Virus record (IMG/VR): IMGVR_UViG_3300009514_000374
Location: 77,008-141,007 of that record
DNA length: 64,000 bases
Source of the DNA: a virus
Reading direction: 5' to 3' (one strand)
Both the position numbers and the translations under genes were made by a program. How positions within the stretch are numbered: the first letter of the stretch is position 1; the number at the start of each line of letters is the position of its first letter. The notes under the pieces were generated by a model that did not search any database, was not told the DNA's origin, and worked only from the letters and a program-made list of their open reading frames with translations. Shown here piece after piece: positions 3,891 through 38,990 of the stretch.

Positions 3891-4220
3891 GTGTCTCTAC
3901 GCAAGAAACTGATTCGACTCGCTCACCAGAAACCTGAGCTTCGCCCTCACTTGCTGCCGCTGCTCAAGACGGCGATGTACGGCAAGGCGTGGATCACGAA
4001 TTTCAACCGGGCCACGAACATGCTGTGGGTCGGCGTGCAGGGCTACGACGGCATGGTTCGGATGTCGATCAGTGGATCGGGCATGGTCACGTCGCATGGG
4101 CGCCATCCCTCACAGGTGTCTCACAAAGCGCACCAGATCGTTTCCAAGTTTCGGAATGAAGGATTCCCTCGCATTCCACCGCACGGCCACTGGCCGCCCG
4201 AGGTGAAGCCGGACAAATGA
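3891..4220 (+). CDS. Small protein with N-terminal LRKKLIRLA..KPELR module
   Basis: 109-aa ORF; its first 28 aa recur at 6523 and 38619. Confidence 0.65.
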   Translation: MSLRKKLIRLAHQKPELRPHLLPLLKTAMYGKAWITNFNRATNMLWVGVQGYDGMVRMSISGSGMVTSHGRHPSQVSHKAHQIVSKFRNEGFPRIPPHGHWPPEVKPDK

Positions 4221-5512
4221 CCAAGCAGGCATATTGGGAAGGGGTAGACCCCCTTCCCGGCGGCAACATGGACGAGGGCGACATCCACACTTGTCGGTCC
4301 CTGCTTGTCGATGTGCTCGCGTGCCTACGTGCTCAGTCGTGGAACTACCAGACGGCTCACTGGCAGACGGCCGGTGTGCCTGCCTACGGCAACCACCTGC
4401 TCTTTGAGCGCCTCTACAAATCGGTTCAAGACGAGATCGATACGCTTGCGGAGAAGCTCGTTGGCTACTTTGGCCTCCATGCTGTTGACCCATGCGACGT
4501 GATGGACAGGGCTCACAAGCTCGTCAAGCAGTGGAAGGCGTATTCGACCTGCCATGTCGAGCGTGGGCTCCACGCCGAGGAACATTTCCAATCGGGCGTG
4601 TCCAATGCGTACCACCAGATCAAGCAGAAGGGGCGCATGACCCTCGGGCTTGACGATTTTCTGATGGCGGCTGCGAACAACCACGAGTCGCACACGTACC
4701 TGCTCCAGCAGCTTCTCGTGGACATAAACAAGCTCAACGACGCCTACAAGGAGATGGGCGAGGCTCCGTACAAGGACATGACTCCGCCGTACAAGACGGC
4801 CACGCTGGAGGACGGCGTGGACTGGAGTGCGTGGAAGGGCCTCGATGGCAAGTGGAACATCGAGGGCGATGTGACCGCCGCTGAGTTGGAGCGCGTTGAG
4901 GGATTGATCAAGGCCGACCTTTCCGAAAAGTGCGGCACGCCGCACGGCGGGTGGGGTGGTGAGATGTCCTCGATGGAAAAATCGTGGGGAGGCTTCTCGT
5001 CCTTTCGTCCGGTGCGCCGTGGAGAGCGCGAGGATCAGATCCCTGGCGGTCTTGGCGACAAGGCCAAGACGGACGATTTTGATATTGAGCAAGTGCTGAA
5101 AGGAGTCGATGTCGAGCTTGAGCACACGACCGACCCTGACATCGCCCTGGAGATCGCACTTGATCATCTCACCGAGCACGACGACTACTACACGCGACTG
5201 GAGAAGGTAGAGAAGCACGCGGCCATTGGTGACCGTGCTGCACCCTCTGTCGAATACTTGTTCCGCGACGATCCCAAGCGCTACGAGTTGACGGAATTCG
5301 TCAAATCGAAAGCCGTGACCAACCTCGACAATGACCCGGCGACACCGCCAACGCCCGTAGAGATCAAGGACGAGCCCGGAGGTAAGGCTCTCTCTACTTT
5401 GCATCGGTACGTGGTCGATACCGAGGAACCCGCTGCTAAGGATGCAGAGGGCATCGAGGAACACCCACCCCTGTCCGATTTCAAGGACTGGACGACCGTG
5501 AGAGAGAAATAA
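4217..5512 (+). CDS. Dps/ferritin-like domain fused to a DUF5661-like domain
   Basis: AHWQTAG..NHLLFERLY..EIDTLAEK matches the Dps ferroxidase-centre pattern; KGVDVELEHTTDPDIALEIALDHL..YYTRL resembles phage DUF5661. Confidence 0.75.
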   Translation: MTKQAYWEGVDPLPGGNMDEGDIHTCRSLLVDVLACLRAQSWNYQTAHWQTAGVPAYGNHLLFERLYKSVQDEIDTLAEKLVGYFGLHAVDPCDVMDRAHKLVKQWKAYSTCHVERGLHAEEHFQSGVSNAYHQIKQKGRMTLGLDDFLMAAANNHESHTYLLQQLLVDINKLNDAYKEMGEAPYKDMTPPYKTATLEDGVDWSAWKGLDGKWNIEGDVTAAELERVEGLIKADLSEKCGTPHGGWGGEMSSMEKSWGGFSSFRPVRRGEREDQIPGGLGDKAKTDDFDIEQVLKGVDVELEHTTDPDIALEIALDHLTEHDDYYTRLEKVEKHAAIGDRAAPSVEYLFRDDPKRYELTEFVKSKAVTNLDNDPATPPTPVEIKDEPGGKALSTLHRYVVDTEEPAAKDAEGIEEHPPLSDFKDWTTVREK

Positions 5513-6091
5513 ATGTCCGTTGAAAAGCTATTTCCAAGCATCCATGCTCGCGGTGGCGCACAGCCCCCTTTCACGATCCTCGTCGCCAACCTGACCTCGC
5601 CGGGCGACCCGAGTGTGGGTCGCAACCCCGTGCGGGCTCGTAACGGGTTCCGGCAGCAGAACACAACCCCTGTGGGCCATGCTCCGCATGGCACGGTGGT
5701 TGGAGCGCGTACCGGGACACTGCTCGGCGGCGCCTTCACTCGTAGCGGGGGCACTGTCACGATCGCCAGCGACGATTTCACTGTCCCGGCCGAGGTACTG
5801 GTCGGCCCGTTCGTACTCGTGACTGACGAGGATTTCGATGCGGATGGCCTTGGGGTCAACGTCGTGGCAACCAATCTTGCGGCGGCCATTGATGCCCTGC
5901 CTGGCTACAATGCCGTCGCGGCTCTCGCTGTCGTCACGGTGACGGGGCCGCTTGGCGCCAAGATCGATCCGATCGCACAGCGTTGGCAGTTCCGCACGTT
6001 TGGTGCGGTTGCCAACTTTACCACCATCACGCCTGACGGCGGGTTCCTGACGGGAGGGCTGCCCGAGCCGAGGGCGATGGAGATTCTGTGA
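5513..6091 (+). CDS. Hypothetical virion structural protein
   Basis: 192 aa, Gly/Ala/Thr/Val-rich, coupled to both neighbours. Confidence 0.5.
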   Translation: MSVEKLFPSIHARGGAQPPFTILVANLTSPGDPSVGRNPVRARNGFRQQNTTPVGHAPHGTVVGARTGTLLGGAFTRSGGTVTIASDDFTVPAEVLVGPFVLVTDEDFDADGLGVNVVATNLAAAIDALPGYNAVAALAVVTVTGPLGAKIDPIAQRWQFRTFGAVANFTTITPDGGFLTGGLPEPRAMEIL

Positions 6092-6640
6092 ATGCTTCCG
6101 CCGTGGGTTCGACCTCCCGATGCTTCTTGGACGGAGAAGCAGGTAGCCAAGGCGATCCTTCGGCATCTCAGTCCCGATCTGCTGCACAAGGATTGGGGGC
6201 CAGGCGGCAAGCACTACAAGCCAGGGCGGCACGAGCATTTCGGGTACTGCAACGTCGCCAGTCAAGCCTTCTACTGGCTGATGGGTGCCCGCGAGGCGGG
6301 CTACAAGGCCATGCGGGTGAAGCACGAGGGAGGCACCCATTGGTGGATCCAGTCTCCCAAAGGCAAGGTCTGGGATCTGACCAAAGAGCAATTCACGACC
6401 CCTGTGCCTTACGCCCAAGGGCGTGCGGCGGGGTTCCCCGGCCGAGGGTATTTCCCGACCCTCGCTGCCAAGAAACTGATTGAGAAGGCTCGGGCCGACC
6501 TGGAGAGACGAGGCAAAAAAGCTATGAAAGACCTACGCAAGAACCTGATCCGCCTCGCGCATTCCAAGCCCGAGCTTCGCGCTGATCTGCTTCCGTTGAT
6601 CACGGCTGCCGACCCGACCAAATCAAAGATGGTGCGCTGA
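6092..6640 (+). CDS. Transglutaminase/papain-like Cys-His-Asp protein with C-terminal KPELR module
   Basis: GYCNVASQA..THWWI..VWDLT gives a Cys-His-Asp order; C-terminal MKDLRKNLIRLAHSKPELRADLLPLI. Confidence 0.5.
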   Translation: MLPPWVRPPDASWTEKQVAKAILRHLSPDLLHKDWGPGGKHYKPGRHEHFGYCNVASQAFYWLMGAREAGYKAMRVKHEGGTHWWIQSPKGKVWDLTKEQFTTPVPYAQGRAAGFPGRGYFPTLAAKKLIEKARADLERRGKKAMKDLRKNLIRLAHSKPELRADLLPLITAADPTKSKMVR

Positions 6641-11973: not shown

Positions 11974-12023
11974 TCCCTTCGTAATCCGCTATTCGGGCTA
12001 TGGGCGTGCCTCTAGCGAAGGCT

Positions 12024-15000
12024 ATGGCCCACAAGCCCACAAAGGCGCGGACAGCGTACACCGTCGAACCCACTGAGGGTGGCGTTGTGATCTGGCCCGA
12101 GAATCGGATCGAGCAGGCGTTTATCGACACGTTTGCCGCTCGGGTTGCGGGTCAGAGGCTTGGCGTGGCGAAGGGTCACAATATCGACCTGTCCGAAGAT
12201 CCAATTCACCCGGACGAGGACGACGAGGACGAGTGGAAGGTGGACGAGGAACCGATGTCCATGGGGCATTCGGAGCTTCCCGGCGCCGAGGGCCGGACGG
12301 CGCGGGACTGGACCGCGCCAGGCAGAATCCTCGGCTTTAAGATCCGGTACGACGCCGAAAATGTAATGAGCCACCATCCCATCGTGATGGCCTTCGACGG
12401 GGAGACGGAGATTGGTTTCGTTGAGTTGGTCATGCTCGATGACCCTCCCTCTCATTGCGAGGACGAGTGGACTGAGGTTAGGGACGAGTTGGAACGACGG
12501 GGTGCCCTTGGTGTCTACACCTACGCGGTAGTGGAGTCCTGGCTGGCGGACGAGTATCACCACAACCGTATCGGGGTGGGGATGTACGAGGCGGCGATGG
12601 CTGCTCTGTCAGACCCCCAGGAGCCAGTCATCCTGGTTGCGAGTCGGTGCAGAGGCGGCCCTACGAGCCATCAAGCGAGTCGTGTGTGGGAGTCCATGGC
12701 GCGTCGCTACGTGTCCTCGGGACAGGTTGTTTCGTCCGTTCCCAAGGCCAAAGCTCGGGTGGCGAATGTGGCTCGCCGCTTCATGGCGAAGGCGACGGGC
12801 ACCCGTGCCGGCGACGGCTCCAGCGTGGGGTTGTTCATCCGCCTGCCGAAGCACCTGGCGACGCAATTCCCTGGCCTCGGAGAGAACGACTCGTCTCCAA
12901 GCCACGTCACGTTTCTCTACATCGGGGATTTCAAGGACAAGGACGAGCAGGCCCGGTTGGTCGTCACTCTGCGCGACATCCTTCGACGCTGGTGGCCCAA
13001 GTGTAAGGCAAGCCTCGGTGACCTGGAGTATTTCGACCACCCCGACAAGAACCGCCGCGTCCCGCATGTGTCCGTCGATTTCGACAAGGATCTGTCGGGG
13101 TTCAAGCAGCGGGTCATGCAGGAGCTTCGGGACGAGGGCTTTGAGGTCGGTGACAAGTTCCCCGAGTTCAAGCCACACGTCACGCTCGCGTACATGCCAG
13201 GCATGGACGGGGAGTGGGACAAGCCCGTGCCAGAAGGCTCGTGGGATGTCACTGAGATGGAGATATGGGGGATGCCCCGCGTACACACGATTCCAATTGG
13301 CAAAGCGTCGAGTCAACGAGTGGCTTCTTTGTGGCTTGAGGGGAGCACCCACGCGAAATCGGTTGCTTTGATGCGGTTCCTGTCCCGATTGGCTCAGCGT
13401 CTCGGGGTTGCCCGTCACACCTACGTCGTTGGCGGGGCCATTCGGAATTTCCTGATCGAGCAACCGATCAAGGACATCGACGTAGTGATCGACTCGGTTG
13501 CTGCGGGCAAGGATTCCGAGTGGTTTGCCGAGCAGGTTGCGCGTGCCATTCCGGCGCCAACAAACCTGACGACGAACCAGTACGGCGTTGCCATCCTGAC
13601 CGTGAAGGGGGATTGGGATCTGGACGGCGAAAGCCTCAAGGGCGAGGTGATCGAAATCGCCAACGCTCGCAAGGAGAGCTACGGCGGTGCGGAGGGTAAG
13701 GGCTACAAACCACACATGGTTGAGCCGACAACCATTGACGAGGATGTCTACCGGCGCGAATTCACGTTCAACTGCATGGGAGGGGATACTCTGATTCCCA
13801 CCAAGCGGGGTATCCTTCGCATTGATGAGATCGCGTCTCGTGAGAACGGGGACCGGCAAGATATTCATTTGACAGTGGCGGGACAGGACGGTCCTTCGGA
13901 GGCTGTGGGATGGCAGTACAGCGGGTACGCGCCGACTCTGCGGGTGACCTCCGAGTGGGGACACACCTTCACCTGCACCCACCACCACCCCGTTCTGGTT
14001 CTGCGGGGGCATGACCATGAGTGGGTTCAGGCAGATCAGCTTGCAGAGGGCGACCTGCTTTGCGTGCCCGTGCGGCAGGTGTCGAGGCGAGACCCTCTCG
14101 CTTTGGATTTGCCTGACCCGGTGCAGCCCAAGAGGGGCAGGCTCAAGGGTGCTCGGAAGCCTGAGATAATGACGCCGGAGTTGGCGTTTTTGATCGGGTG
14201 TGTGGTGGCAGAGGGTTCCAACACCCACAAGCGGGTGTCTTTCAGTAACTCCGACCCCAATCTCATTTCCCGCTACGCCGAGTGCTTCCACGCCACTTTT
14301 GGATTTCTCCCCTCCCGTAATAAGGTGGTGAGCAAAGGCTCTGTCCGTGTCCTACGGGGGGTGGAATTTGTCGCCAACCATGACGGCTACGACATTTACG
14401 CCGACAGTAAAGCAGTGGTGGGCTGGTTGGAAGACCTCGGCTTGTACTGCGGAGGCTCCAAGGACGGGAAATCCGCTTCCCATCACAAGGTTGTTCCGTG
14501 GTCGATCCTACAAGCGGACGCGCGTAGCCAGTGGGCGTTTCTTGCGGCTTATCTTGAAGGGGACGGATCTATCCGGCCGGATACCGGGCGCATCACATAC
14601 TGTTCGGCCTCCCCGAAAGTGCGTCAACAGTTGCAGGTGCTCCTGGGAGCGCACGGCATCTTGAGCAAGGTGAAGGATAGGTTTGTCTACCTTAGCGCCG
14701 TGGATTCGGCTCTCTTGTGGGAGAAGGTTCGCCCGTGGATGGTTACCAAGGGGTTCGACTACACGCGAGACAGCAAGTCCCGTAACCGTTACGGAATTCC
14801 CGCAGATCACATCCGGGGGTTTCTTGCGGGCCGTAAACAAGCTCGTTCCGTGTACGCCACGGACGAGGGCGGGCTCCGGTCCCTTCCAGACGCTCACGAG
14901 CCTGTCCGTAAGGTTCAGCGGCTTCTACACGACGCCTACGCTCGGGGAGATTTCGACGGGCTCCTGTCGAGTCTCAAGATCATTAGCGGAGACGAACACG

Positions 15001-15881
15001 CCAAGCTACAGCGGTTGTTTGACCTGGGCTACCAGTATGTCGAGGTTGCGTCAGTTGAAGATGCTGGAGATCAGGACGTATTCGACATTTCGATGGGTGA
15101 GGGGGTAGAGCCCGCTTTTGTGGCGAACGGTGTGGTGGTTCACAACACGCTCATGTGGCGGTTGCTGGACCTGACCCACGGACCCGAGAAGGCCGAGGTA
15201 ATCGACCTGACCGGCTGTGGTCGCCGGGATCTGGAGCAGGGCGTTCTCAAATGCCCGCGTGACCCCGACATCGTGTTCGCGGACGACGCGACTCGTATCC
15301 TTCGGGCGATCAAATTCACCGGCAAGTACGGATTCAAGATCCCGCCTGACCTGGCCGCCGCGATCAAGCGCAACGCTCCGAAGATGAAGCAGATGCCCTA
15401 CGAGGCGTTGAAAGACATCCTCGTGGATAACATCTTGCCCGAGCCGACCGCTCGCAAATCGCTCCAGCAGATGAAGGATCTCGGCATCCTCGATGTGCTG
15501 CACGACATGATTCAGGAGCAGAAGCCGTTTGCTTCGGCCATCGCCAAGGTGCTCGGTCGGGAGCGTCGGGTTCAGGTTCTACTCGACTGGCTGCATCTTG
15601 GCCTGCCCGCCAAGACCCCGCTGCATTTCCTTGGGGCGCATGAGCGAGTCCGAGTCCGCGAGATCACGGTTCCGATGGACGAGGACAAGGCGACTGATTG
15701 GATGCACCGGCTGATCAAGCCTCCGGTCAACAATAACGAGGTCATCGAAGCTCACTCGCTCGTTGGGCGGGACCGCGCGATGATCATGCCGCTTGCTCGC
15801 AAGCTGATTCTCGTAGACCCCGACCTCGCCTACGACGGCCGCGCCCTGACGCGCGAGGTGATTGAAAGGTGGGTGCGGTGA
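12024..15881 (+). CDS. Polyprotein: GNAT-like + 2H phosphoesterase + class II CCA/poly(A)-polymerase nucleotidyltransferase (intein-containing)
   Basis: GNAT-like WLADEYHHNRIGVGMY; two HVT motifs (12903, 13176); YVVGGAIRN, KDIDV, EDVYRREFTFN, DATRILRAIKF. Start is 12024 (GAAGG RBS) or 12000. Confidence 0.85.
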   Translation: MAHKPTKARTAYTVEPTEGGVVIWPENRIEQAFIDTFAARVAGQRLGVAKGHNIDLSEDPIHPDEDDEDEWKVDEEPMSMGHSELPGAEGRTARDWTAPGRILGFKIRYDAENVMSHHPIVMAFDGETEIGFVELVMLDDPPSHCEDEWTEVRDELERRGALGVYTYAVVESWLADEYHHNRIGVGMYEAAMAALSDPQEPVILVASRCRGGPTSHQASRVWESMARRYVSSGQVVSSVPKAKARVANVARRFMAKATGTRAGDGSSVGLFIRLPKHLATQFPGLGENDSSPSHVTFLYIGDFKDKDEQARLVVTLRDILRRWWPKCKASLGDLEYFDHPDKNRRVPHVSVDFDKDLSGFKQRVMQELRDEGFEVGDKFPEFKPHVTLAYMPGMDGEWDKPVPEGSWDVTEMEIWGMPRVHTIPIGKASSQRVASLWLEGSTHAKSVALMRFLSRLAQRLGVARHTYVVGGAIRNFLIEQPIKDIDVVIDSVAAGKDSEWFAEQVARAIPAPTNLTTNQYGVAILTVKGDWDLDGESLKGEVIEIANARKESYGGAEGKGYKPHMVEPTTIDEDVYRREFTFNCMGGDTLIPTKRGILRIDEIASRENGDRQDIHLTVAGQDGPSEAVGWQYSGYAPTLRVTSEWGHTFTCTHHHPVLVLRGHDHEWVQADQLAEGDLLCVPVRQVSRRDPLALDLPDPVQPKRGRLKGARKPEIMTPELAFLIGCVVAEGSNTHKRVSFSNSDPNLISRYAECFHATFGFLPSRNKVVSKGSVRVLRGVEFVANHDGYDIYADSKAVVGWLEDLGLYCGGSKDGKSASHHKVVPWSILQADARSQWAFLAAYLEGDGSIRPDTGRITYCSASPKVRQQLQVLLGAHGILSKVKDRFVYLSAVDSALLWEKVRPWMVTKGFDYTRDSKSRNRYGIPADHIRGFLAGRKQARSVYATDEGGLRSLPDAHEPVRKVQRLLHDAYARGDFDGLLSSLKIISGDEHAKLQRLFDLGYQYVEVASVEDAGDQDVFDISMGEGVEPAFVANGVVVHNTLMWRLLDLTHGPEKAEVIDLTGCGRRDLEQGVLKCPRDPDIVFADDATRILRAIKFTGKYGFKIPPDLAAAIKRNAPKMKQMPYEALKDILVDNILPEPTARKSLQQMKDLGILDVLHDMIQEQKPFASAIAKVLGRERRVQVLLDWLHLGLPAKTPLHFLGAHERVRVREITVPMDEDKATDWMHRLIKPPVNNNEVIEAHSLVGRDRAMIMPLARKLILVDPDLAYDGRALTREVIERWVR
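13773..15146 (+). mobile_element. Intein with LAGLIDADG homing endonuclease (458 aa)
   Basis: Begins CMGGDTLIPT; block B TCTHHHPVL; endonuclease blocks LIGCVVAEG and FLAAYLEGDG; ends FVANGVVVHN followed by Thr+1. Confidence 0.93.
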
Positions 15882-16963
15882 AGCCATCGGCAAACCGCGT
15901 CGCGTCGCTCCACCGCGCTGGCTATTTCAGCGTCGGCGACCTGATCTTGTTTGGAAAGTACAAGAACAAGAAGGGCAAGATCGTCGGGTTTGGCCGCACG
16001 GAAAAGAACGTGCCTACGGTCATTGTCGAACCCATCCCCAAGGGCCGCAAAAAGAACAAGGAGATCGGCCTGTTCAAGATCTGGCATGGCGTGCCTGAGA
16101 AGCGTGCGATGACGATGGAGGCTCGTGTAGCTCACCGCTATGCTTTTGAGCACCCAAGCGAGAAGGCTCGCCAGCAGTACCTCAAAGATCACCCCGGAGC
16201 CGATCCTAAGAAGCACCATGTCAAGGGGCCGTCGAAGCCGAGCAAGGTCAAGAGTCTCGTAGATCGGGCGCTCGCCAAGGTGAAGGGCGCGAAGGACCAC
16301 ATGGTCGCTGCGGTTCGTGCGGCCCCGGCCGAGGTTCACTCGTTCCTGTTCGACAAGGCCCATCGGAACAAGCGGACCAAGGAGCTTGCCGCGAAGCTCA
16401 AGGAGAACGCACCCAAGGCTAAGAAGGCTCTGTTCAGCGCCCTCAAGCGCGAGCTTTCGTCGTTCCCGAAAGCGGGGGCCATCCTCAAGCGGGTCGCAAC
16501 GGGAGGCAAGCTCCAAAAGGGCGATGTCAAGACCCTCTATGGTGTCGGCGTCTACATCGCGGGCACTGTTCTTGGCGCGATGTCGGGAGGGGCTGCGGGC
16601 GCGGCTTTGTTTGGGGCCTCCAAGGCGCTCCTGCACAGCCTCAGTTTGCACGCTTCGATCAAGGCAGTCAGCCATCTCGCCGACGAGGGGTTCCTTGGCT
16701 ACGAGGCGGTGGAGAGTGGCGCGATGGCGACGGGCCTGGCCGATGCGTTGCCGGTGAACACGAGTGACCTGCCTGGCTTGGGCAAGGTGTTTGACGTGCT
16801 CAAAGAGGTGGTCACAGCAGCCGACGAGAAGGACGACGAATACCTGCGCAAGTTTGTTGAGGCCATGTACGACGACATTGTGAAGCAACTGGAGCAGGGC
16901 ATCAGCGACGCTGACATTCGGGACGTTCTCGTTCACGGGGTTCAGCCAAAGGGGGCCGCATGA
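15878..16963 (+). CDS. Hypothetical head-associated protein (SH3-like N-terminus, hydrophobic helices)
   Basis: GTG overlaps the upstream TGA; FSVGDLILFGKYKNKKGKIVGFG; two R-V-A motifs. Confidence 0.6.
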   Translation: MKPSANRVASLHRAGYFSVGDLILFGKYKNKKGKIVGFGRTEKNVPTVIVEPIPKGRKKNKEIGLFKIWHGVPEKRAMTMEARVAHRYAFEHPSEKARQQYLKDHPGADPKKHHVKGPSKPSKVKSLVDRALAKVKGAKDHMVAAVRAAPAEVHSFLFDKAHRNKRTKELAAKLKENAPKAKKALFSALKRELSSFPKAGAILKRVATGGKLQKGDVKTLYGVGVYIAGTVLGAMSGGAAGAALFGASKALLHSLSLHASIKAVSHLADEGFLGYEAVESGAMATGLADALPVNTSDLPGLGKVFDVLKEVVTAADEKDDEYLRKFVEAMYDDIVKQLEQGISDADIRDVLVHGVQPKGAA

Positions 16964-19900
16964 GCGCAGCACGCATCGCCGCCCTTCACATGGCGAAGGC
17001 CAGGTACAAGGACAAAAAGGTCGTCAAGGACTCGGACGGGAAGGATATGACCGTGTACGAGTACAGTGACCGCCAGGTTTCCAAGCGGAACAACGACAAG
17101 GCCGATCGTGTGCAGAAGCTCCGGTCCCTTCGATCCGATCTCGTGAAGCGGGTCAAGAAGGACTACAAGGCCAAGGATCTCAAGACGCGGCTCACGGCGT
17201 TGGCCGTGGGTTTGATCGACCATACCTACGAGCGTGTTGGCAACGACGAGAGTGCGGGCGAAGGCCACTTTGGCGTGACCGGCTGGCTCGTCAAGCATGT
17301 CTCGTTCTCGGGCGGCAAGGCGACGATCCGGTACGTCGGTAAGAGTGCAGTCAAGCAGACCAAGGTCGTGACTGATCCGGGGGCGGTCAAGCTGCTCAAA
17401 GAAGCGGTCAAGGGCAAGAGCCCCGGCGATCAGATCTTCACCTGCGACGACGCGGGCGAGAAGGTGTGCGTGACCTCGGCCGAGGTCAATGCCTACCTGC
17501 CGGAAGGGATCACGGCAAAGGATCTACGAGGGCTTCACGCGAACGAGGAAATGCTCGTCAAGCTCAAGGCGCAGCGTAAGGGTCCGCTCCCGAGTGACAA
17601 GAAAAAGCGCGAAAAGAAGCTCAAGGACGAATTCAAGCGGGCGCTGGAGGAAACGGCCAAGGTGGTCGGCCACGAGCCGAGCACGCTCCGTAGCCAGTAC
17701 CTCGTCCCTGCGATGGAGGACGCCTACATGAAGGACGGCACGGTGATCGACAAGCTCAACGAAAAACGCTCGTCGCTGGAGGCCGCGTGGGATCACTTGG
17801 CGACCAAGACGGACGAGGAAAAGAAGGACGAGGACGCTGATAAGAACGTCCGCAAGGACCCGAAAAAGAAGCCTCCGCGCTACGACCTCCGTGACAACAA
17901 GATTCACGATCCTGATCTCAATGGGGATCCCGACATGAAGGACGAGGCCAAGGCCGACAAGGACCCTGATCTCTCCCTCAACTACAAGCGAGTTGCGCGA
18001 CGGTTCTTTGCGCGCAAGACCTCACCTACGGAATCCGGCGCCAAGGCGCTGTGGGAGCGGCACAAGCAAAAGAGCCCCGGCACCAAGCTCAATTGGCAGG
18101 ATTTCTTTGAGCGCAAGGACAAGGGCACCATCCAAGAGGTTCGGGACGCGATCAAGCCCAAGGACAAGCCCAAAGACGAGCCCGCGAAGCCCAAGAAGCC
18201 CAAGGCCCCGGAGGACGAGGGCGAGGCTAAGGAGAAGCCCGAGGACGAGGACAAGGCCAAGAAGAAGCCCGCCGAAGGCGAGGCGCCCACTGAGGATCCG
18301 CAGGCTGAGCAAGCCGCCAAGGAGAAGGAGCACAAGGAGCGTGTTCAGAGTGCCGTGACCGATTCGGCGCAGGCATACGACTCCGTGTTCGGCGGAGGCC
18401 GTGTCCAGGTTCCCCGCGAGGTAAGCCGATACCTTCCCCAAGCCCTCTCCAACATGACGCCGGAGCAGGTCGAGAGTTTCAACCAGGCCACGCAACAGCG
18501 CGCTCAGGCGATGCAGAACGAGGGTTTGCGTGGTGAAAATGTGGTCGAACGGGCTGAACGGACGCTGGATGACTACAGCGACGAGCAGATCGAGAACATC
18601 TCTGATCCAGCACGGCTGGCACAGGTAGTTGCTGATCTTACGTTCTCCGAGCACGTCCTGTCCCTCGACAAGAAGCGGCAAAAAGGCGTGAAGCGGGCGC
18701 TTAGCAAAGCGTTCGACCAGATCGAGAAGCAGTTGCAAAAGGAAACCAAGGACGGGCGGTACCGCCTGCCTTCGGAAATTCGACGCACGATCTCAGACCA
18801 GATGGGGAGCTTGGAGCCCGATCAGATCCAACAGTTCGTCCAGGGCGTGACGGAAAACCTGGCGGACAATGCGACCAAGTACGACGACAGCGATGAATCT
18901 GTCGAGCGCGCCCAAGGTGATCTTGAGGAATTCTCCGAGCTAATCGAGGGAGTTTCGGATCCGAATGTGATGGCGCAAGAGGTCGCTTCGCAGATTCGCG
19001 CGAAGCGGGTCGTAGAGAAGCACAAGCTCAAGCAAGGCGACCGCAAGCGGGCGATGCGGAAGGTGAACCAGGCGCTTGCACGCTCTATGGGCGTTCTCGT
19101 GTCTGAGCTTCCCCGTGACCTGAGAGGCAAGCTCGATGCGGCCATGGAGCACATGGACCCCTCGGATGTTCTGTCCGTGTCCGAGGCCGTGACCGACGAG
19201 GCAGGCAAGCTCATGGCTCGGTACGGGGAGAACCCCGAGGATCCGGGCCTGCTTGCAGAGGCCGTGCAGATGGCGTCCGTGGACAAGCTCAACACCACTG
19301 ACCCTCGGACGCTCGCGCAACAGGCGGCTTTGCTGCTCATGGCTCACGGGAAGCTGGCGAGCCCGTTTGAGGTTGGCGGGACCGAGGTTAGCAACGTCCA
19401 AAAATCCCCCGAGGAATTGAAAGCTCGCGGGCAGGCTGCGTTCGACAAATTCGCTGCGCTACCGCAGGAGCTTCGGGACACCGCTGCCAAGGATCTGCAT
19501 CGCCGGATCAAGGCCACGAAAAAGGACACCCCCGAGCACGCTGAGTTGAATCGGATCTTGGATGGCCTTGCTCTCGCGGCTTGGACTGATCCTGAGAACG
19601 AGAGAATTCCCTCGATCCCCGGCCGCGCCACGAGCGCAAGGTTTGTCGAGATCGCTAAGGCGATGCGGGCAGACGGCAAGATCCATGAATTGCTCGACGC
19701 GGCCACGGACCAAAATTCGTCGGCAGCGATCGGATCCATGCGTGACGCCATGGCGCGCATGAGCGACGACTCCCTGATCCGGGCCATGAAGGACAGCCAG
19801 CCGGAGCTTGCGAAAGCCCTGGAGGACTCCATGGCGGGTGGCATCGAGGCCCAATACCTCACGTCCGAAAAGACCGAAATCCTCCGTGACGTGATGCGGG

Positions 19901-21493: not shown

Positions 21494-22948
21494 ATGGCTT
21501 TCCTACGCTACGCGCGGGCCAAGGTCGTCAAGCCCCACTGCTCTGGACAGCGGTGGCGCAGGGTCCGTACTGCCTCGACGGCAGCGCCCTCGGCCAACCT
21601 GATCACTCAGGCCAACGAAATTCTCGGCTCGGAATTCGACCCGAGCAAGTATCTCCTGACCCACGCGACGATCGTGTGCTCGGTGGATACGTCAGAGGTT
21701 CCAGGGGTCAAGACCGGCTCTGTTATGGATCCCATGACGGGCAAGCGGGTCAACCGCAAGTGGGCCAACTACCGCGTTGCTCCCGAGTGCGACCAGTTCA
21801 TCAACAACAACAACGACTGTTGGGACCGGGGCGTGCTGCTCAAGAGCTATCGCACGTTCGTCGGCGCCCACAACTTTGTTGAGCACGTTCAGATCGAGGA
21901 ACAGTCCAAGGGCCGGATCATCGACGCGGTAGCCCGCGACATCGGCCCCTCGGTCTACACGGACATCCTGATTGCCACCAGCCGTGACCACACCCAACTG
22001 GTCAAGGACATCGAGGCAGGCAAGATGGCTACCCTCTCGATGGGTTGCTCGGTCACTGAGACGATCTGCACGAAATGCGGAAACGTCGCGGCCGATGAAA
22101 CCGAGATGTGTAACCACATCAAATACGAGAAGGGGAACTACTTTTTCGATGACCGGGGCGGCAAGCACCGGATTGCCGAGCTTTGCGGCCATCCGAGCAT
22201 CGACCCCAACGGAGGCGTGACTTTCATCGAGGCGTCGTGGGTCGCTACCCCGGCGTTTGGCGGTGCGGTCATGCGGAACATCCTCACGCCGAGCCAGGCC
22301 GTCGCCGACAAGGCAGCCAAGGTTCTCGCTTCGCCTCCGCCTGAGTGGCAGGACGGTGGAATCGACAAGGCTGCGCGCATCGTTCAGGTGCCCGCTGTCG
22401 TGGCCGAGGGTGAATTCGATTTCGGGGACGAGGGCGAAGGCGAAGGCGACGAGGGCGGTGGCGAAATGCCAGACGCTCCGGCGCAAGAGGCTCCCGCAGC
22501 CCCCGAAAAGAAGGACCAACTCCAACAGCTTGAGGACGAGATGTACTCGGAGATGGCTAAGCGAGTGAAGGATCGCATGAAGCGTGATCTCGCCGGTCCT
22601 GAACCCTCCCTGGGAGAGCCTTCACACTCAACTGGTGAGGACGTGATCAAGCAAGGGCGCAAGAAGCAAGCGTATGCCTCTTTCGTCAACAACTTGGTCC
22701 GTACCGCAGATTCCGATGCAGCCCTGATCGATGGGCTGGCTCGGGCTAATCAGCAAATGGGAATTCAAATCGTCCGCGACCTGTACGTGGCGTCTCTCAA
22801 TGTAGGCGCCACGTCCGAGTACGCTTCTTTGGTCGAGTACGTTGGCGCTTGTCGCAAAGCGCTCGGCCGCAAACCAACTCACGGAGAGGCTACACAAATG
22901 GTGCGTCTTGGGAAGCTCCTCTCCAAGTGGAAACAGCAACCCAAGTAG
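21494..22948 (+). CDS. Prohead maturation protease (HK97/assemblin fold) with Zn-finger insert
   Basis: NFVEH..KGRIIDA (His), LSMGC (Ser), CTKC..CNH, FIEASWVATPAF; upstream of scaffold and capsid genes. Confidence 0.85.
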   Translation: MAFLRYARAKVVKPHCSGQRWRRVRTASTAAPSANLITQANEILGSEFDPSKYLLTHATIVCSVDTSEVPGVKTGSVMDPMTGKRVNRKWANYRVAPECDQFINNNNDCWDRGVLLKSYRTFVGAHNFVEHVQIEEQSKGRIIDAVARDIGPSVYTDILIATSRDHTQLVKDIEAGKMATLSMGCSVTETICTKCGNVAADETEMCNHIKYEKGNYFFDDRGGKHRIAELCGHPSIDPNGGVTFIEASWVATPAFGGAVMRNILTPSQAVADKAAKVLASPPPEWQDGGIDKAARIVQVPAVVAEGEFDFGDEGEGEGDEGGGEMPDAPAQEAPAAPEKKDQLQQLEDEMYSEMAKRVKDRMKRDLAGPEPSLGEPSHSTGEDVIKQGRKKQAYASFVNNLVRTADSDAALIDGLARANQQMGIQIVRDLYVASLNVGATSEYASLVEYVGACRKALGRKPTHGEATQMVRLGKLLSKWKQQPK

Positions 22949-22969: not shown

Positions 22970-24262
22970 ATGGCACGTCAACGCCTTACTCAGCAAAGCA
23001 AGAACGCTTCTCCGCCCCCGCAGATGCCTGCGAACGATCGGACGGAGAAATCAGAACACCCCGCCGCGCAGCCCGATCCGGGCAAGGACGACTACAAGAC
23101 CGGCGACCCCTCCACTTGGGCCGAGGACGTTCACCCTGGCCCCTACGACACGAGCCCCGCTCCGGCGACTCCAGGCTACGACGAGGCTGCGGATCATCCC
23201 GCCGCCAAGCCGGGCAAGCCCATGAAGGCGTCGGACGAGGAAGCGTATCGCAGGGCGACCGAGAAAAAGGCCGCCAAGTGCATCCGTATCGCTCAGGCTC
23301 TCATGCCCGAGGCTGCGGTGTCTGCGATCGAGGATCAAGCCCTCGATTTCATGGACCTCCCCGACAGCCAGATCCACAACACCCTCGATCGCCTTGGCCT
23401 TACGGCTGCTGACGACGAGGACGAGGATGACGACGAGGACGAGGGCAACGGCAAAGAAGCCAGCCACGCTCTCACCGCTCGCCTCGACAAGATGGAGAGG
23501 ATGCTGACTCGGATCATGGAAGCCGGGAACCTCTTTGCCGAGAACGGCATGGACATGGATCCCATGGACGACATGATGGGCATGGACGAGGGCATGGACG
23601 AGGACGCCATGCTTGAGGAAATGCTGGCCGACGACCATGCCGGCCGCCCTCCGAATGACGCTCAGTACGGATACGGAGTTGTCGGCGAGGACGACGACCC
23701 CGAGGTCGAGGAAATGCTCGCCGAGATGATGGGCGGCCACTACGCTGGCGAGATGCCCGAGGGCCTCAAGAAGCATCTTGAGGAAAAGGAAAAGGGCAAG
23801 TCGGACGACGACTCGGACGACGACTCGGACGACGACAACGGCAAAGAAGCAAAGGCCGCTGACGACGACGAGAACGGCGACGAGGACGAGGGTGACGACG
23901 AGGAGGGCAAGGAAGCCTCGATCCAGATGCTCTCCGACGAGCAAGACCCGATGGGCCTGATGGACCAAACCCCGGCCGGCGACGACGACCTGAGCGTCCT
24001 GTACGAAAAGTTCGCGGGTGACGACGAGGACGACGAGGACGAGGACGAGGACGACGACGACGATGGAGACGAGGACGAGGACGAGGCCGAGGCCAGCAAG
24101 AAGGCCAAGACCAAGACCGCCTCGCTCCGTCCGCAGCCCAAGAAGCCCTCCAAGGGACCAAAGAAGCTCGGGCAGGTAAGCAAGACGGCATCTTCGGAGG
24201 TCGCTGAGCTTGCTTCCCTCTGGAAGACTGACCCGGACGTTTCGTCCGTGTTCAACGGGTAG
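22970..24262 (+). CDS. Probable capsid scaffolding protein (very acidic)
   Basis: Long D/E tracts; lies between protease and capsid genes; GGGAG RBS. Confidence 0.7.
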   Translation: MARQRLTQQSKNASPPPQMPANDRTEKSEHPAAQPDPGKDDYKTGDPSTWAEDVHPGPYDTSPAPATPGYDEAADHPAAKPGKPMKASDEEAYRRATEKKAAKCIRIAQALMPEAAVSAIEDQALDFMDLPDSQIHNTLDRLGLTAADDEDEDDDEDEGNGKEASHALTARLDKMERMLTRIMEAGNLFAENGMDMDPMDDMMGMDEGMDEDAMLEEMLADDHAGRPPNDAQYGYGVVGEDDDPEVEEMLAEMMGGHYAGEMPEGLKKHLEEKEKGKSDDDSDDDSDDDNGKEAKAADDDENGDEDEGDDEEGKEASIQMLSDEQDPMGLMDQTPAGDDDLSVLYEKFAGDDEDDEDEDEDDDDDGDEDEDEAEASKKAKTKTASLRPQPKKPSKGPKKLGQVSKTASSEVAELASLWKTDPDVSSVFNG

Positions 24263-25130: not shown

Positions 25131-26003
25131 ATGACCGTATCTAACGCTACCAAGCAAAAGATCATCTCGGACTACATCAAGACTCCGACTGGTCGCGCCA
25201 AGCTGGCTGCCTCGATGACGCAGCCTCTCCGCACCCGACGTGACTACACGTCTGTTGGGCGCCGTACCTTCCTTGTCGAGCAGTTGCCAGATGGCGCGCT
25301 CCCGATCTACGACAAGGATCCCGATGTCACGGCCTACGTCGTCGGCGAGGAAGGCGAGAACATTCTCGCCATCACCAAGCCACGTCGCGTGATCTTCCCG
25401 CTGTTTGAGATTGCCTCCAACCCGGAGATCCCTCTCACTCAGATCAAGGAGCGCAGGTTCGATCTGATCGAGCGCGCGCAAGACCTTGCTCGGGCTCAGA
25501 TCCAGGCCGCCGAGGACGAGCGTGTGTTCGCTATCCTCGACGCCATCGCAACTGTCGGTTTCGATTCGCTTCCGGGCGGACTCAACCCCGACATTCCGGT
25601 TGTCGCTCCCATCTCGGGTGCGGTGCTGGCTGACGCCTTCTCGCTCATTGAGCGCCACGACCTCCGGGTCGCGCGCGTCTACATGAACGCGAGGGACTAC
25701 GCCGACATCCGCAAGTTCGGTCGGGACATTCTCGACATCGAGAGCCAGGCGACGCTGCTCAAGACTGGTCTGCAAGCTACCCTCTGGGGTGCCCAGATCA
25801 TCACGAGCCGCCTCGTTCCGGTCGGCACGGTGTACGTCTGCTGCGAGCCCGAGATGTTTGGCCGCATCCCGGTTCGTACGGAATTGACCGTCTTGAGCGC
25901 GGACGACCCCCGCGCCCGTACCATCGGTTTCTCGGTTTTCGAGAACCTCGGCATCGGCGCCTACAACCCGCGCGGCCTGACGCGTCTGACCATCACCCGC
26001 TAG
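25131..26003 (+). CDS. Major capsid protein (HK97 fold, encapsulin-like, no delta domain)
   Basis: GRAKLAASMTQPLR..DY..VGRR..VEQLPDGALPIYDKD, FDLIERAQ, LWGAQII; AGGAG RBS; strongly biased codons; terminator follows. Confidence 0.88.
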   Translation: MTVSNATKQKIISDYIKTPTGRAKLAASMTQPLRTRRDYTSVGRRTFLVEQLPDGALPIYDKDPDVTAYVVGEEGENILAITKPRRVIFPLFEIASNPEIPLTQIKERRFDLIERAQDLARAQIQAAEDERVFAILDAIATVGFDSLPGGLNPDIPVVAPISGAVLADAFSLIERHDLRVARVYMNARDYADIRKFGRDILDIESQATLLKTGLQATLWGAQIITSRLVPVGTVYVCCEPEMFGRIPVRTELTVLSADDPRARTIGFSVFENLGIGAYNPRGLTRLTITR

Positions 26004-26111: not shown

Positions 26112-28604
26112 ATGTCGGAACCGAGTGGCGAAACCGAAGCGAACAAGCCCTATGCCCTTCACGGGAAGCTGACGGTCGAGAAGCTGCGTGAGATGTACGA
26201 GGTCGAGCTACTGACCGACCAAGAGATTGCCGACCACTACGGGGTTTCAGATGCCGCTGTGAGCGGCCGGAGGAAACGGGCAGGCATCGCTACCATGTCG
26301 GCTCGGCAACGCCGTGAGCGGAAAGCAGGGCGCTCGGGACCGTTCCTAGACGACCTGACTCCGACCGAGCTTGCGGACCTCTATAGCCGCATGGGTGATC
26401 GGCAGATCGCCGCGACGTACGGGGTCAAGAAACCTGCGATCTCCAGGCTCCGAGACAAGTGGGGGATCGGAGCTATCTCCAAAGCCGAGCGTGCGACCTC
26501 CAGGGAGCCTCTGACTGACGAGCAAAAGGAGATCGTGATCGGGGTGATGCTTGGGGACGGGCACTTGCTTTCGCGTGGAGTGTTCAAGGTCAGTCATTCG
26601 CAGCACCAGTACGAATACCTGTGCCACGTCCACGCGGCGCTGTCCTCCATCGCCAAGCCACTCTACTACGACGAGAAGGAGATGGCCGAGTCGGGAGAGC
26701 TTTGCCCTGGCTTCGGGTTTCGCACGGTTCAACATTCCTGGCTCAAGGCGATGCGTCGCCTGTTCTATCCCGAGGGCGAGCGGGTGTTTCCGGCCTCGGT
26801 GCTGGATAACCTGACGGAGCGTTCGCTGGCCTACTGGTACTTTGACGACGGCTACGAGAGCGATGGGTTGCCTCGGTTCGCCCTCGGCAAAATCTCACGT
26901 TCCGCAGCCGAGGATGTCGTACAGCGAATCGGGAGGCGCTTTGGGTTCAAGACCTACGTGGGGTCGCCGGTTCCGAATTGCCAGATCATGTCGATGCGGG
27001 CTGTGTCGTCTGAGCGGTTTTTTCGGATAGTCGTGGATTTCGCGTCGCCGGATATGCTCTACAAGGTCCCTGAGCGGTTCTGGCCTGCGCACGCTCGGCC
27101 TACAGTGAAGGTCAGGACGGTTGACCCGATCCAGCTTCCCAAGGAACTTCGGGGGACGGACCCGAGCTTGGAGGATGGCCTGTTGGCGTTTTGGCGGAAG
27201 CAGGGGTTCCCCTACCACGTTGCTCGGCCTGAGCACCTTCGTATCCTGGCGAATCTGGAGGCGAACCAAGTGCTCCAGGGGGACTCGCTGAAAATTCGGC
27301 ATGTTGGGCAGTCGTCGTGCCAGGCTTTCATGCCGCACATTTGGGAGGCGCATAGCTTTGCGACACCGAGTCCCAAGGCACTGTTCGACAACGACGACCG
27401 GCTGCGGGAGGTGATCCGGCGAGGGCTCGCTGCGGGCATCGTGTTCAGCGCGGCAGGAATGCGTCAGGCTTTGAGGCGCTACCGTCTTACGAGCGTCTAC
27501 AATTTCCGCCCGGCCGTTGCGAAGGTCTTGGTCGATCGGTTCTGTCCGAGTGGGGGGACGGTTTTCGACCCGTGTGCGGGTTGGGGTGGCCGCATGTTGG
27601 GCACGTTGTTGTCGAGGGCGAACGCTCGTTACGTCTGCTGCGAGCCTAGCTCCAAGACGGTACGGGGTCTGCACGAAATGAAGATGTGGGTCGAGGGGCA
27701 TGTAGTCGGTGCTGCGGATCGGGTGACGATCAACCCCGTCCCTGCGGAAACCTTCGACCCTCCCGAGGCGGATATGGTGTTGACCTCGCCGCCGTATTGG
27801 AAGCGGGAGGTTTACGCGGACGAGGACACACAGTCGTCGGCTCGCTACTCGACCTACGAGGCATGGGTCGATTCGTTCCTGCGGCCCATGATCGCTCGGA
27901 GCATCGCTGCCTTGAAATCGGGGGGCTGGCTCGTCCTGAACGTGGACGATTTTGCGATCGGGGAGACTAAGTACCGCTTGGTTCAGGACGTGAAGGACAT
28001 CGTAGCGGAGCACGGGCTCCGCGACCCTGACGAGTTTCGGTATGAGATGCCGTCCTTCACTACCGAGGACAACTACGAGCCGGTGCTGGCTTGGCCGAAA
28101 GGGTTGGGCGTCGAGACTGCTCATTCGGATCCGGTTGCAGTTGCGGTCGGACAGCCTGAGCAGAAGGTCACGGCTCGGACGCCGCTGGCGAAGATCTGTA
28201 TTCAGTGCCGGAGGCGGTTTGAGACTCTGCGCGCGGACACGAAATACTGCTCGGATGCGTGCGGCTCTCAGTACCGGAAGCAGAAGCGCGGCGGGAAGCC
28301 ACGAAAGACTCACCGGACCATCCAGTGCAAGGCGTGCGAGAATTCGTTTGCGATTCCGTTGACCGGGGGAGTGCCCAAGCACTGTCCCTCGTGTGCGATC
28401 GACATCGCGGAGAATCGTGAGCTTGCGGCACGGACCAAGGCGTGTGCGTACCGCCACTGTGGGCGCAAATTCTTGGATACCTCGACCAAGAACATCGCCA
28501 AGTTCTGCCACGTCGAGCATCGACGGCGGGAGAAGCTGTTTCGGTCGGGAAGGGCGGCAGACCTGTCGCATTTCCGCAACCCGGACCCGGTGCTCGATCG
28601 GTAG
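26112..28604 (+). CDS. Fusion: HTH repeats + LAGLIDADG endonuclease + amino-DNA methyltransferase + Zn fingers
   Basis: IGVMLGDG and LAYWYFDDG; FDPCAGWGG (motif I) then TSPPY (motif IV); several C-terminal CxxC pairs. Confidence 0.82.
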   Translation: MSEPSGETEANKPYALHGKLTVEKLREMYEVELLTDQEIADHYGVSDAAVSGRRKRAGIATMSARQRRERKAGRSGPFLDDLTPTELADLYSRMGDRQIAATYGVKKPAISRLRDKWGIGAISKAERATSREPLTDEQKEIVIGVMLGDGHLLSRGVFKVSHSQHQYEYLCHVHAALSSIAKPLYYDEKEMAESGELCPGFGFRTVQHSWLKAMRRLFYPEGERVFPASVLDNLTERSLAYWYFDDGYESDGLPRFALGKISRSAAEDVVQRIGRRFGFKTYVGSPVPNCQIMSMRAVSSERFFRIVVDFASPDMLYKVPERFWPAHARPTVKVRTVDPIQLPKELRGTDPSLEDGLLAFWRKQGFPYHVARPEHLRILANLEANQVLQGDSLKIRHVGQSSCQAFMPHIWEAHSFATPSPKALFDNDDRLREVIRRGLAAGIVFSAAGMRQALRRYRLTSVYNFRPAVAKVLVDRFCPSGGTVFDPCAGWGGRMLGTLLSRANARYVCCEPSSKTVRGLHEMKMWVEGHVVGAADRVTINPVPAETFDPPEADMVLTSPPYWKREVYADEDTQSSARYSTYEAWVDSFLRPMIARSIAALKSGGWLVLNVDDFAIGETKYRLVQDVKDIVAEHGLRDPDEFRYEMPSFTTEDNYEPVLAWPKGLGVETAHSDPVAVAVGQPEQKVTARTPLAKICIQCRRRFETLRADTKYCSDACGSQYRKQKRGGKPRKTHRTIQCKACENSFAIPLTGGVPKHCPSCAIDIAENRELAARTKACAYRHCGRKFLDTSTKNIAKFCHVEHRRREKLFRSGRAADLSHFRNPDPVLDR

Positions 28605-36889: not shown

Positions 36890-36910
36890 GTGAGATTGCG
36901 GAGAGGGTAC

Positions 36911-37335: not shown

Positions 37336-37339
37336 CCCG

Positions 37340-37609: not shown

Positions 37610-37642
37610 TCAATCCGACCTATAGACGGGGTAAGGTGACTC

Positions 37643-37876: not shown

Positions 37877-37901
37877 ATCAGGCTATACGGGTCCACTGGT
37901 A

Positions 37902-38573
37902 GTGGACCCGTCCGCGAAAACGGTTGCTGCGCGCCACATGCGGCGCACCGCTGCGCGTGAGATCGAAGCCTCGATCAACAAGGCGATCGTCCCGCTCACG
38001 GCGCATTGGAAGCCTGCGGGTGCGCCCGTGACGAACGAGGACAAGGCCCGAGCCCGTCTCTCCGACGCCGAGATGGCGGAGTGGCTGGAGGAAATGCGGC
38101 CCGAAGCACGGATCGGACACATCCGAGGTGTGTTTGGGATCGAAATGGGCCGCCATCGCCAGTGGCTTGCGCTGGAGATCCCCATTGTCGTTGGGGACGA
38201 TGGGAAGGTCGTCACCTACGGTCCCATGTTCGGTGAGCACGATGTTCGGTTCATCCGAGGCAGCGAGAAGCCATTTCGGACGGAGCCACAGCTAGCCGAG
38301 GCGATCGTGTATCTCCTGGCCGGTCAGGGCTCCCTGGATGGCCCCCTGACCGTCAGAGCCAAGGCGACGGTGTGGGAGAGCCTGATGGGTGCGCTCAAGG
38401 TGAGCGTCGGTGAGGGTTTCTGGAAAGTGAAGCCGGGCCATGGCTACGCGGCTCAGGACATTCGCCCCAAGGCTTCCCCGTTCGTGGAGCGGATGGTCGG
38501 CCATCTCACGGCTGAGTGGGCTCGGGAAACCGGCTACTCACCCATGCTTTCGCCTGCATGGCAAAGCGCCTGA
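37902..38573 (+). CDS. Hypothetical protein with N-terminal PSAKTVAARH motif
   Basis: In-frame GTG 37902 (or ATG 37938) after a late-promoter-like motif. Confidence 0.55.
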   Translation: MDPSAKTVAARHMRRTAAREIEASINKAIVPLTAHWKPAGAPVTNEDKARARLSDAEMAEWLEEMRPEARIGHIRGVFGIEMGRHRQWLALEIPIVVGDDGKVVTYGPMFGEHDVRFIRGSEKPFRTEPQLAEAIVYLLAGQGSLDGPLTVRAKATVWESLMGALKVSVGEGFWKVKPGHGYAAQDIRPKASPFVERMVGHLTAEWARETGYSPMLSPAWQSA

Positions 38574-38618
38574 TGCGCCGCTAGTTTCTCTATGCCCAGA
38601 CCCCGATAGGAGCCGCCG

Positions 38619-38990
38619 ATGTCCCTACGCAAGAAGCTGATCCGACTCGCCTACGAGAAGCCCGAGCTTCGATCCGATCTGATTCCGCTGATCAAGGTCG
38701 CTGCTCGTGTCGGCGACTCCACTTGGCGATCGATGCTCAAGGATCTGGAACGAGGCAAGCCGGGCAACTGGAGCTTCGACGGCCGTGGGCTTCGGGAGTT
38801 GGAGAACTGGATCGTGGAGCAAGGTGGCAAGGCAATTTCGCCTTCGTCACGTTTCTCCGAAGGCGACCAGATCAACTACACCCTGAACGGGATCAGCCTT
38901 GAGGGTACCTCGGGAAATTTCATGGGTCCGTTCACGCAGGTTCAGGCGCAGCGCGGCATGTGGCGCGGCACTCCGTATCTCGGTGATTAA
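38619..38990 (+). CDS. Small protein with N-terminal LRKKLIRLA..KPELR module
   Basis: AGGAG RBS; first 28 aa homologous to ORF 3891. Confidence 0.65.
   Translation: MSLRKKLIRLAYEKPELRSDLIPLIKVAARVGDSTWRSMLKDLERGKPGNWSFDGRGLRELENWIVEQGGKAISPSSRFSEGDQINYTLNGISLEGTSGNFMGPFTQVQAQRGMWRGTPYLGD

What the first reader, a model, noticed from the sequence alone, without database searches (positions are those of the whole stretch)
3891..38705. Second portable 28-aa module (LRK.LIRLA..KPELR..L.PL) on three unrelated proteins
Seen: MSLRKKLIRLAHQKPELRPHLLPLLKTA (3891), MKDLRKNLIRLAHSKPELRADLLPLITAA (6523, C-terminal, with its own ATG after GAGG) and MSLRKKLIRLAYEKPELRSDLIPLIKVAA (38619, 35 kb away). The attached bodies are unrelated. 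Many nucleotide differences are synonymous, which implies selection on the peptide. Similarity stops at KTA / TAA / KVA. Inference: a cleavable targeting leader, i.e. address plus cut site in one cassette, that can be appended to new cargo. The copy at 38619 also has the late-promoter-like motif directly upstream, so it forms a self-contained late gene inside the accessory region.
Basis: partly seen in the sequence, partly recalled or inferred. Interest (0 to 1): 0.87.

Follow-up and report, generated by a model that had tools for sequence, protein, structure and literature searches.

The report
Portable cargo tag in giant phages
A 25-residue two-helix peptide is attached to thousands of otherwise unrelated proteins of a group of uncultured giant phages, with a likely protease cut site on each side where it joins another domain, so it is probably an address label that loads cargo into the phage head, although no experiment shows this yet.

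Summary
The three copies are real and under selection as peptide (pS 0.34-0.55, pN 0.13). The 141-kb contig, a piece of a giant phage related to phage G, holds 15 copies on 10 genes; 3,714 protein clusters carry the module; 177 carriers from related genomes fall into 117 cargo groups. It is predicted to be a helical hairpin and matches no domain library or solved structure. It is not only a leader: about 80% of carriers have it N-terminally, the rest internally or C-terminally. K/R-x-A flanks it on each side that joins a domain (66-74%, 8-9% expected) and is largely missing after C-terminal copies. The same tripeptide is enriched in the putative scaffold and head protease. The same cargo families carry this tag, a shorter second tag, or none. 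Best reading (0.6): a head-loading tag removed by the prohead protease, working like the T4 capsid targeting sequence without being homologous. Packaging and cleavage are inferred. The separate start at 6524 is not supported. This scan noted the tag in other windows of this genome and similar, possibly the same, tags in other jumbo phages.

The parts
3891..3974 (+). Module copy 1, N-terminal on orphan ORF 3891-4220 (109 aa), ending in KTA (3966-3974), a candidate protease site
   Evidence: no homolog of the cargo found. In relatives G002/G003 the same slot, right after the homolog of ORF 1944-3887, holds a tagged gene with another cargo
6515..6610 (+). KKA (6515-6523) followed by module copy 2 (6524-6610), near the C-terminus of ORF 6092-6640 (YunG-like, phrog_12251; Cys-His-Asp pattern seen by eye)
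   Evidence: homologs carry the module C-terminally without Met, the short second tag N-terminally, or no tag
38619..38702 (+). Module copy 3, N-terminal on orphan ORF 38619-38990 (123 aa), ending in KVA (38694-38702)
   Evidence: no homolog of the cargo among proteins of 67-216 aa
38582..38593 (+). Late-promoter-like motif TA-N6-CTAT, 25 bases upstream of ORF 38619
   Evidence: 16 of 18 occurrences in the contig are intergenic although 91% of it is coding; enriched before N-terminal carriers in relatives. That it is a promoter, and late, is inferred
21494..22948 (+). Putative head maturation protease, the candidate cutting enzyme; its C-terminal helix (22898-22912) echoes the 5-residue core of the module
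   Evidence: phrog_18299, E 2e-10; K-x-A and R-x-A 1.8-1.9 times expected in 29 homologs; core present in 22/29 homologs but profile match not significant
22970..24262 (+). Putative scaffolding protein (acidic, between protease and decoration/capsid genes), rich in K/R-x-A; conserved helix at 23279-23293
   Evidence: gene position and composition (inference); K-x-A 2.3 and R-x-A 2.5 times expected in 45 homologs, K-xx-A 0.96
25131..26003 (+). Major capsid protein, which places the phage
   Evidence: 92% to LR745208.1 (485 kb), 48% to Tunturi_5, 38% to phage G gp27, 28% to Bxz1-type mycobacteriophages; PDB 6wkk, E 1e-61; 560 IMG/VR stretches encode a relative
16124..16141 (+). Example of the short second tag (R-V-A-x-R-Y/F) in ORF 15869-16963, placed before a small repeated domain that follows the long module elsewhere in the contig

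Best explanation
The module is a head-loading tag of this giant-phage clade. Late-made proteins that carry the folded hairpin dock on the assembling prohead, most likely on the scaffold core. The phage's maturation protease then cuts after K/R-x-A on whichever side the tag joins a domain, which frees single cargo domains inside the head, including from multi-domain precursors; at least some are probably ejected into the host. New cargo is recruited by gaining this tag or the shorter R-V-A-x-R-Y/F tag. Shown: the module, its selection, its spread, its three positions, the flanking tripeptide, tag exchange on the same cargo, the tripeptide's enrichment in scaffold and protease, and the promoter association. 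Predicted: the hairpin fold. Inferred: late timing, cleavage at K/R-x-A, packaging, the docking partner, ejection.
For: Flanks: in 338 copies from 150 proteins, K/R-x-A lies just upstream of 123/169 internal and 35/53 C-terminal copies (9% expected) and just downstream of 84/116 N-terminal and 121/169 internal copies (8% expected); control windows 4-12%; at module position 28 it is in 103/285 N-terminal and internal copies but 0/29 C-terminal ones. Repeated in genome-derived samples: 55/70 and 55/74 N-terminal copies; C-terminal copies 0/6 and 2/10 downstream. The tripeptide is enriched in scaffold (2.3-2.5x) and protease (1.8-1.9x) homologs, not in decoration, tail-region or replication proteins (0.3-1.3x), and in the matching proteins of cultured relatives: phage G gp19 10 against 3.4 expected, Tunturi_5 gp332 20 against 7.7, Myrna gp97 31 against 15.4. 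No copy on the 28 genes of the replication block; 1 of 83 carriers has a membrane-like stretch. Cargos include ART-PolyVal, SAM lyase, RNA ligase, WGR, GNAT-like, ParB-like and ferritin-like domains, kinds that are proposed to be head-packaged in PMC9503650. 11 of 55 cargo homologs that lack the module have the short tag next to the shared domain (about 3% expected). T4 precedent: PMC9026906.
Against: No proteomics exists for any phage with the module; it was not found in phage G, Tunturi_5 or Myrna. I found no paper that shows cleavage at K/R-x-A in this group. About a quarter of junctions lack the tripeptide nearby. The module's own invariant core (R9-L10-A11) fits R-x-A, which the model has to explain as a shielded or self-destruct site. 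Copy number ranges from 0-1 to 24 among genomes with 91-95% identical capsid proteins, so the module is not essential in this form. The likeness to the scaffold and protease helices is five residues, chosen after seeing them, with hhalign probability about 1%. The copies are related by descent, so the counts are not independent events. Most cargos have no known function.
Confidence: 0.6

Rival explanations
1. The hairpin is a docking or self-association tag, but for a structure other than the head interior (tail lumen, baseplate, an assembly site in the cell), or it simply makes carriers cluster with one another.
For: Amphipathic hairpin with a conserved hydrophobic face; tandem and both-end copies suit cross-linking; no direct evidence for a head location.
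Against: The flanking tripeptide is shared with the head scaffold and protease and is depleted in tail-region proteins; removal of a pure oligomerisation domain from both neighbours would have no clear purpose.
Confidence: 0.17
2. The hairpin is a small basic DNA-binding unit that brings cargo in with the genome, or is released by the protease to help condense DNA in the head.
For: Mean net charge about +2.7 and three conserved arginines; helix-turn-helix shape.
Against: No match to any DNA-binding family or solved fold; conservation is mostly hydrophobic; it exchanges with a 6-residue tag. From my own knowledge: maturation cleavage in T4-like assembly precedes DNA packaging, which would cut cargo off before DNA arrives.
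Confidence: 0.1
3. The module is a degradation or chaperone signal that sets the lifetime or folding of late proteins in the cell, without packaging.
For: It works at any position, and copy number varies by lineage.
Against: It is bracketed by a site that would separate it from cargo, and that site marks head-assembly proteins.
Confidence: 0.09
4. It is a selfish coding DNA repeat that inserts in frame and is merely tolerated.
For: Many dispersed copies on unrelated genes.
Against: Synonymous change exceeds non-synonymous (mean pS 0.62, pN 0.28 over 15 copies); always on the coding strand of an open frame; flanks depend on protein context.
Confidence: 0.03

Closest known systems
Capsid targeting sequence (CTS) of phage T4 internal proteins IPI-III, cut by prohead protease gp21 (PMC9026906)
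   Same: Short shared peptide on unrelated, poorly conserved late proteins, next to a motif that also marks core and scaffold proteins; cargo includes ADP-ribosyltransferase domains, as T4 heads carry Alt.
   Different: No sequence likeness; 25 residues with a predicted fold instead of 10-19; N-terminal, internal or C-terminal, up to 5 or more copies per protein; candidate site K/R-x-A instead of cleavage after Glu; head module of the phage G/Bxz1 type; no experiment.
Propeptide removal in SPN3US/phiKZ-like giant phages by gp245 at A-X-E (PMC10052503)
   Same: A three-residue motif read by a head protease, often many times in one precursor.
   Different: Those propeptides are long and specific to each protein; no shared portable tag is described; different motif.
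Polyvalent proteins and MuF- or portal-fused effectors (PMC5512222, PMC9503650)
   Same: Multi-domain, variable effector precursors proposed to be head-packaged and processed; shared domain types (ART-PolyVal, GNAT, ParB-like).
   Different: There the carrier is a whole domain (MuF, portal) and processing is proposed for built-in metallopeptidases; here a 25-residue tag with flanking sites. The passages I read describe no such tag.
C-terminal helix-turn-helix of P22 scaffolding protein, which binds coat protein and is used to load foreign cargo (from memory, not tested)
   Same: About 30-residue basic helical hairpin able to act as a cargo handle.
   Different: No sequence or Foldseek match; P22 has one copy on one protein and no maturation cleavage.

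Membership tests
T4-type capsid targeting sequence | Short peptide shared by unrelated proteins | tested here: met
   177 carriers, 117 cargo groups; 3,714 clusters
T4-type capsid targeting sequence | N-terminal position | tested here: not met
   N-terminal in 70/83 and 74/94 carriers, but also internal and C-terminal, including the 6524 copy
T4-type capsid targeting sequence | T4 CTS sequence with cleavage after Glu by a gp21-type protease | tested here: not met
   Consensus differs, flanks are K/R-x-A, the protease matches phrog_18299 and the capsid protein is of the phage G type
T4-type capsid targeting sequence | Adjacent motif shared with scaffold and protease | tested here: met
   (statistical enrichment, not cleavage)
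T4-type capsid targeting sequence | Carriers expressed late | tested here: inconclusive
   Shared upstream motif with structural operons; no RNA data
T4-type capsid targeting sequence | Sufficient for packaging into proheads and removed during maturation | not testable with these tools
   needs proteomics or a fusion assay
Known stand-alone DNA-binding or dimerisation domain | Significant match to a curated family or solved structure | tested here: not met
   Pfam best E 0.05, NCBIfam 0.06, PHROGs 0.03, PDB sequence E 1.5, Foldseek PDB E above 4, BFVD E 2.5
Fragment of the phage's own scaffold or protease | Detectable homology to the scaffold core or the protease C-terminal domain | tested here: inconclusive
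   Five-residue core shared (22/29 proteases, about 34/45 scaffolds; only 5 non-module matches in the 42,854-aa proteome, 2 of them these), but hhalign probability about 1%
Polyvalent proteins | Several effector domains in one chain with an MPTase, MuF or similar hub domain | tested here: inconclusive
   Multi-domain carriers and ART-PolyVal cargo exist; no hub domain appeared in the Pfam scans; most carriers are single small domains (median cargo 123 aa)

The most novel reading that the evidence does not exclude
This megaphage clade runs a general, position-independent head-loading code: two interchangeable tags, derived from or mimicking a helix that the scaffold and protease use to join the core, plus K/R-x-A cuts that split precursors into single cargo domains. 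Thousands of unknown proteins could then be called injected effectors from sequence alone, and the 25-residue tag could load foreign proteins into very large capsids.
Probability: 0.35. Interest if true: 0.85.

Novelty: new variant of a known kind. Interest (0 to 1): 0.62.

Why it matters
How giant phages choose the proteins they carry in the head is understood only for T4's short leader. A tag that can be found with one profile would give a list of candidate head-packaged, probably injected proteins (ADP-ribosyltransferases, a SAM lyase, RNA repair enzymes and more than a hundred unknown folds in my sample) for a widespread uncultured clade with genomes up to about 620 kb. It also gives the first concrete prediction for the cleavage rule of the phage G/Bxz1-type head protease, which can be tested now in cultured phage G, Myrna or Tunturi_5.

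Tried and rejected
Complex prediction (module with scaffold core) was not available; nothing was folded. Sequencing runs: none was listed, no RNA holder listed. Domain, structure and atlas searches gave only non-significant or generic hairpin matches; the best BFVD row (Caulobacter phage CcrSC, E 2.5) was not followed. Profile comparison of the module with scaffold and protease: not significant. A separate gene start at 6524: rejected. TAA as cut site: rejected. Cellular origin: an exact-match pattern found 4 stretches in 596 Gb of prokaryote genomes, all short MAG contigs that carry genes of this phage group, and tblastn found none in plasmids. Homologs of the 3891 and 38619 cargos: none found. 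The literature search found no paper with the core word and none on K-x-A cleavage in phage heads; the phage G proteomics supplement is not held; the library lacks most subscription papers. The search for homologous proteins and the search for related loci could not take the 30-residue alignment. The K-x-A figure for the capsid protein was ignored because those sequences are nearly identical. Host not determined.
Full report
1. Observation. The three copies are at 3891-3974, 6524-6610 and 38619-38702 on the + strand and are the only ones in the window. DNA identity between them is 66-74%, with pS 0.34-0.55 against pN 0.13, so the peptide is what is kept. The copy at 6524 is the in-frame end of ORF 6092-6640. 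A homolog at 60% identity keeps the C-terminal module without a Met, and Met is no commoner at internal copies than in a control window, so a separate start is not supported.

2. Setting. The window is the last 64 kb of a 141-kb virus contig. It holds terminase, portal, head protease and capsid genes. The capsid protein is 92% identical to that of the 485-kb uncultured phage LR745208.1 and 28-48% to Tunturi_5, phage G and Bxz1-type phages; close relatives in IMG/VR reach 619 kb. The contig is therefore probably a fragment of a giant phage (inference).

3. Spread. The contig has 15 copies on 10 genes: N-terminal, internal and C-terminal, up to three per protein. LR745208.1 has 11; nine IMG/VR genomes have 0 to 24, and the one with none has a divergent variant. 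A profile finds 3,714 clusters at 50% identity with E up to 0.001. In two samples taken from related genomes, 70/83 and 74/94 carriers have it N-terminally; with the module masked, the 177 carriers form 117 groups, 96 of them single. An exact pattern gave 96 stretches in viral contigs and 4 in prokaryote genomes, the latter on contigs with genes of this phage group. It was not found in phage G, Tunturi_5 or Myrna.

4. What it is. AlphaFold2 gives two helices (3-13, 15-29; pLDDT 94), and both copies form the same hairpin in a two-copy protein with a low-confidence middle.

5. The flanking tripeptide. In 338 copies, K/R-x-A stands just upstream of 73% of internal and 66% of C-terminal copies and just downstream of 72% of N-terminal and internal copies, against 8-9% expected and 4-12% in control windows; at position 28 it is in 103/285 N-terminal and internal copies and 0/29 C-terminal ones. 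The genome-derived samples repeat this. The window fits: KTA after copy 1, KVA after copy 3, KKA before copy 2. The tripeptide is 2.3-2.5 times enriched in 45 scaffold-like homologs and 1.8-1.9 times in 29 proteases, while other spacings such as K-xx-A are not, and decoration, tail-region and replication proteins are not. Phage G gp19, Tunturi_5 gp332 and gp328 and Myrna gp97 show the same excess; their sheath and tail fibre proteins do not. Since scaffolds and head proteases are the usual substrates of maturation cleavage (PMC9026906, PMC10052503), K/R-x-A is the best candidate for this protease's site. That is inference; I found no experimental report.

6. Portability. The YunG-like domain of ORF 6092 occurs with the module behind it, with the short R-V-A-x-R-Y tag in front, or bare. 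An ART-PolyVal domain has the module in three relatives and the short tag in this contig and in LR745208.1. Overall 11 of 55 cargo homologs without the module have the short tag beside the shared domain, against about 3% expected. One conserved cargo has the module at the front in some genomes and at the back in others. The slot of ORF 3891 holds a tagged gene with another cargo in G002/G003. Named cargos are few: ART-PolyVal, SAM lyase, RNA ligase, WGR, pentapeptide repeat, GNAT-like, ParB-like and several DUFs.

7. Expression class. TA-N6-CTAT occurs 18 times in the contig, 16 times between genes and mostly 10-115 bases before a start, including starts of structural operons and ORF 38619. 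It precedes 21/70 and 14/74 N-terminal carriers, none of 33 others, and about 0.7% of background windows. No replication gene carries the module. Late timing is inferred.

8. Possible origin. The protease's last helix and the scaffold's conserved helix share the module's five-residue core. Profile comparison is not significant, so this is a lead only. The complex predictor was unavailable.

9. Mechanism and rivals. Best reading (0.6): dock on the prohead, be cut free by the head protease, leave cargo in the head. Rivals: docking elsewhere or self-association (0.17), DNA binding (0.1), degradation or folding signal (0.09), selfish repeat (0.03).

10. Comparison and novelty. It works like the T4 capsid targeting sequence but fails membership on sequence, position and cut site. 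I found no description in the papers searched. This scan noted the tag in other windows of this genome and similar tags in other jumbo phages, of which e1-5363095 and e1-5675126 may be this same family (sequences withheld, not checked); these notes are not independent evidence. Verdict: real feature, new variant of a known kind, function inferred; interest 0.62.

Noticed in passing
window 15896, 16124, 17989, 21254, 42017, 59158, 61424 and elsewhere in G000: A short second tag, R-V/I-A-x-R-Y/F/W/H, near ends and junctions of head-region proteins; it replaces the long module on homologous cargo (ART-PolyVal, DUF3293, YunG-like and others).
   Followed up: partly
window 16178; G000 28445, 29483, 30689, 41662: Another small repeated domain (about 25 aa, with an E/D-H-P-x-A-D/K core) follows either tag; present in 18 of the top 150 carriers.
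   Followed up: partly
window 12000-15881: 1293-aa ORF right after the portal: by eye GNAT-like, 2H-phosphoesterase-like and CCA-type nucleotidyltransferase domains with an intein, separated by short-tag helices.
   Followed up: no
window 16960-20928: 1322-aa ORF with a topoisomerase IB-like N-terminal part (by eye) and a C-terminal segment whose motif also follows the module in 7 of the top 150 carriers.
   Followed up: no
window 4217-5512: Ferritin/Dps-like domain plus DUF5661; homologs are common in the clade, in one case on a protein with two modules.
   Followed up: partly
G000 6240, 13260, 16788, 17209, 20610, 24959, 45037, 54443, 54858: A second promoter-like motif (GGTTTCG, 15-19 bases, CGT-A/T-A/T) upstream of accessory genes, none of them a module carrier.
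   Followed up: partly
L051 3542, L062 3835, L063 5339 and 8476, L077 13559, G004 near 13100 (minus strand): Divergent or insertion-bearing variants of the module that score below the threshold; the genome with no counted copy has one on a conserved cargo, so the family is larger than counted.
   Followed up: partly
window 25131-26003 and L014-L093: The capsid protein is 91-95% identical across genomes of 45-61% G+C whose scaffold cores are only 23-54% identical to this one.
   Followed up: no
window 26112-28604: 830-aa ORF after the capsid gene with repeated HTH-like units, a LAGLIDADG-like part and a DNA methyltransferase-like part (by eye); 44% to LR745208.1.
   Followed up: no
L179 (CAZEFW010000138.1), L177-L178, L180: Module-bearing contigs binned into Myxococcales, Actinomycetota and Acidobacteria MAGs; probably binned phage DNA, not host evidence.
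   Followed up: partly
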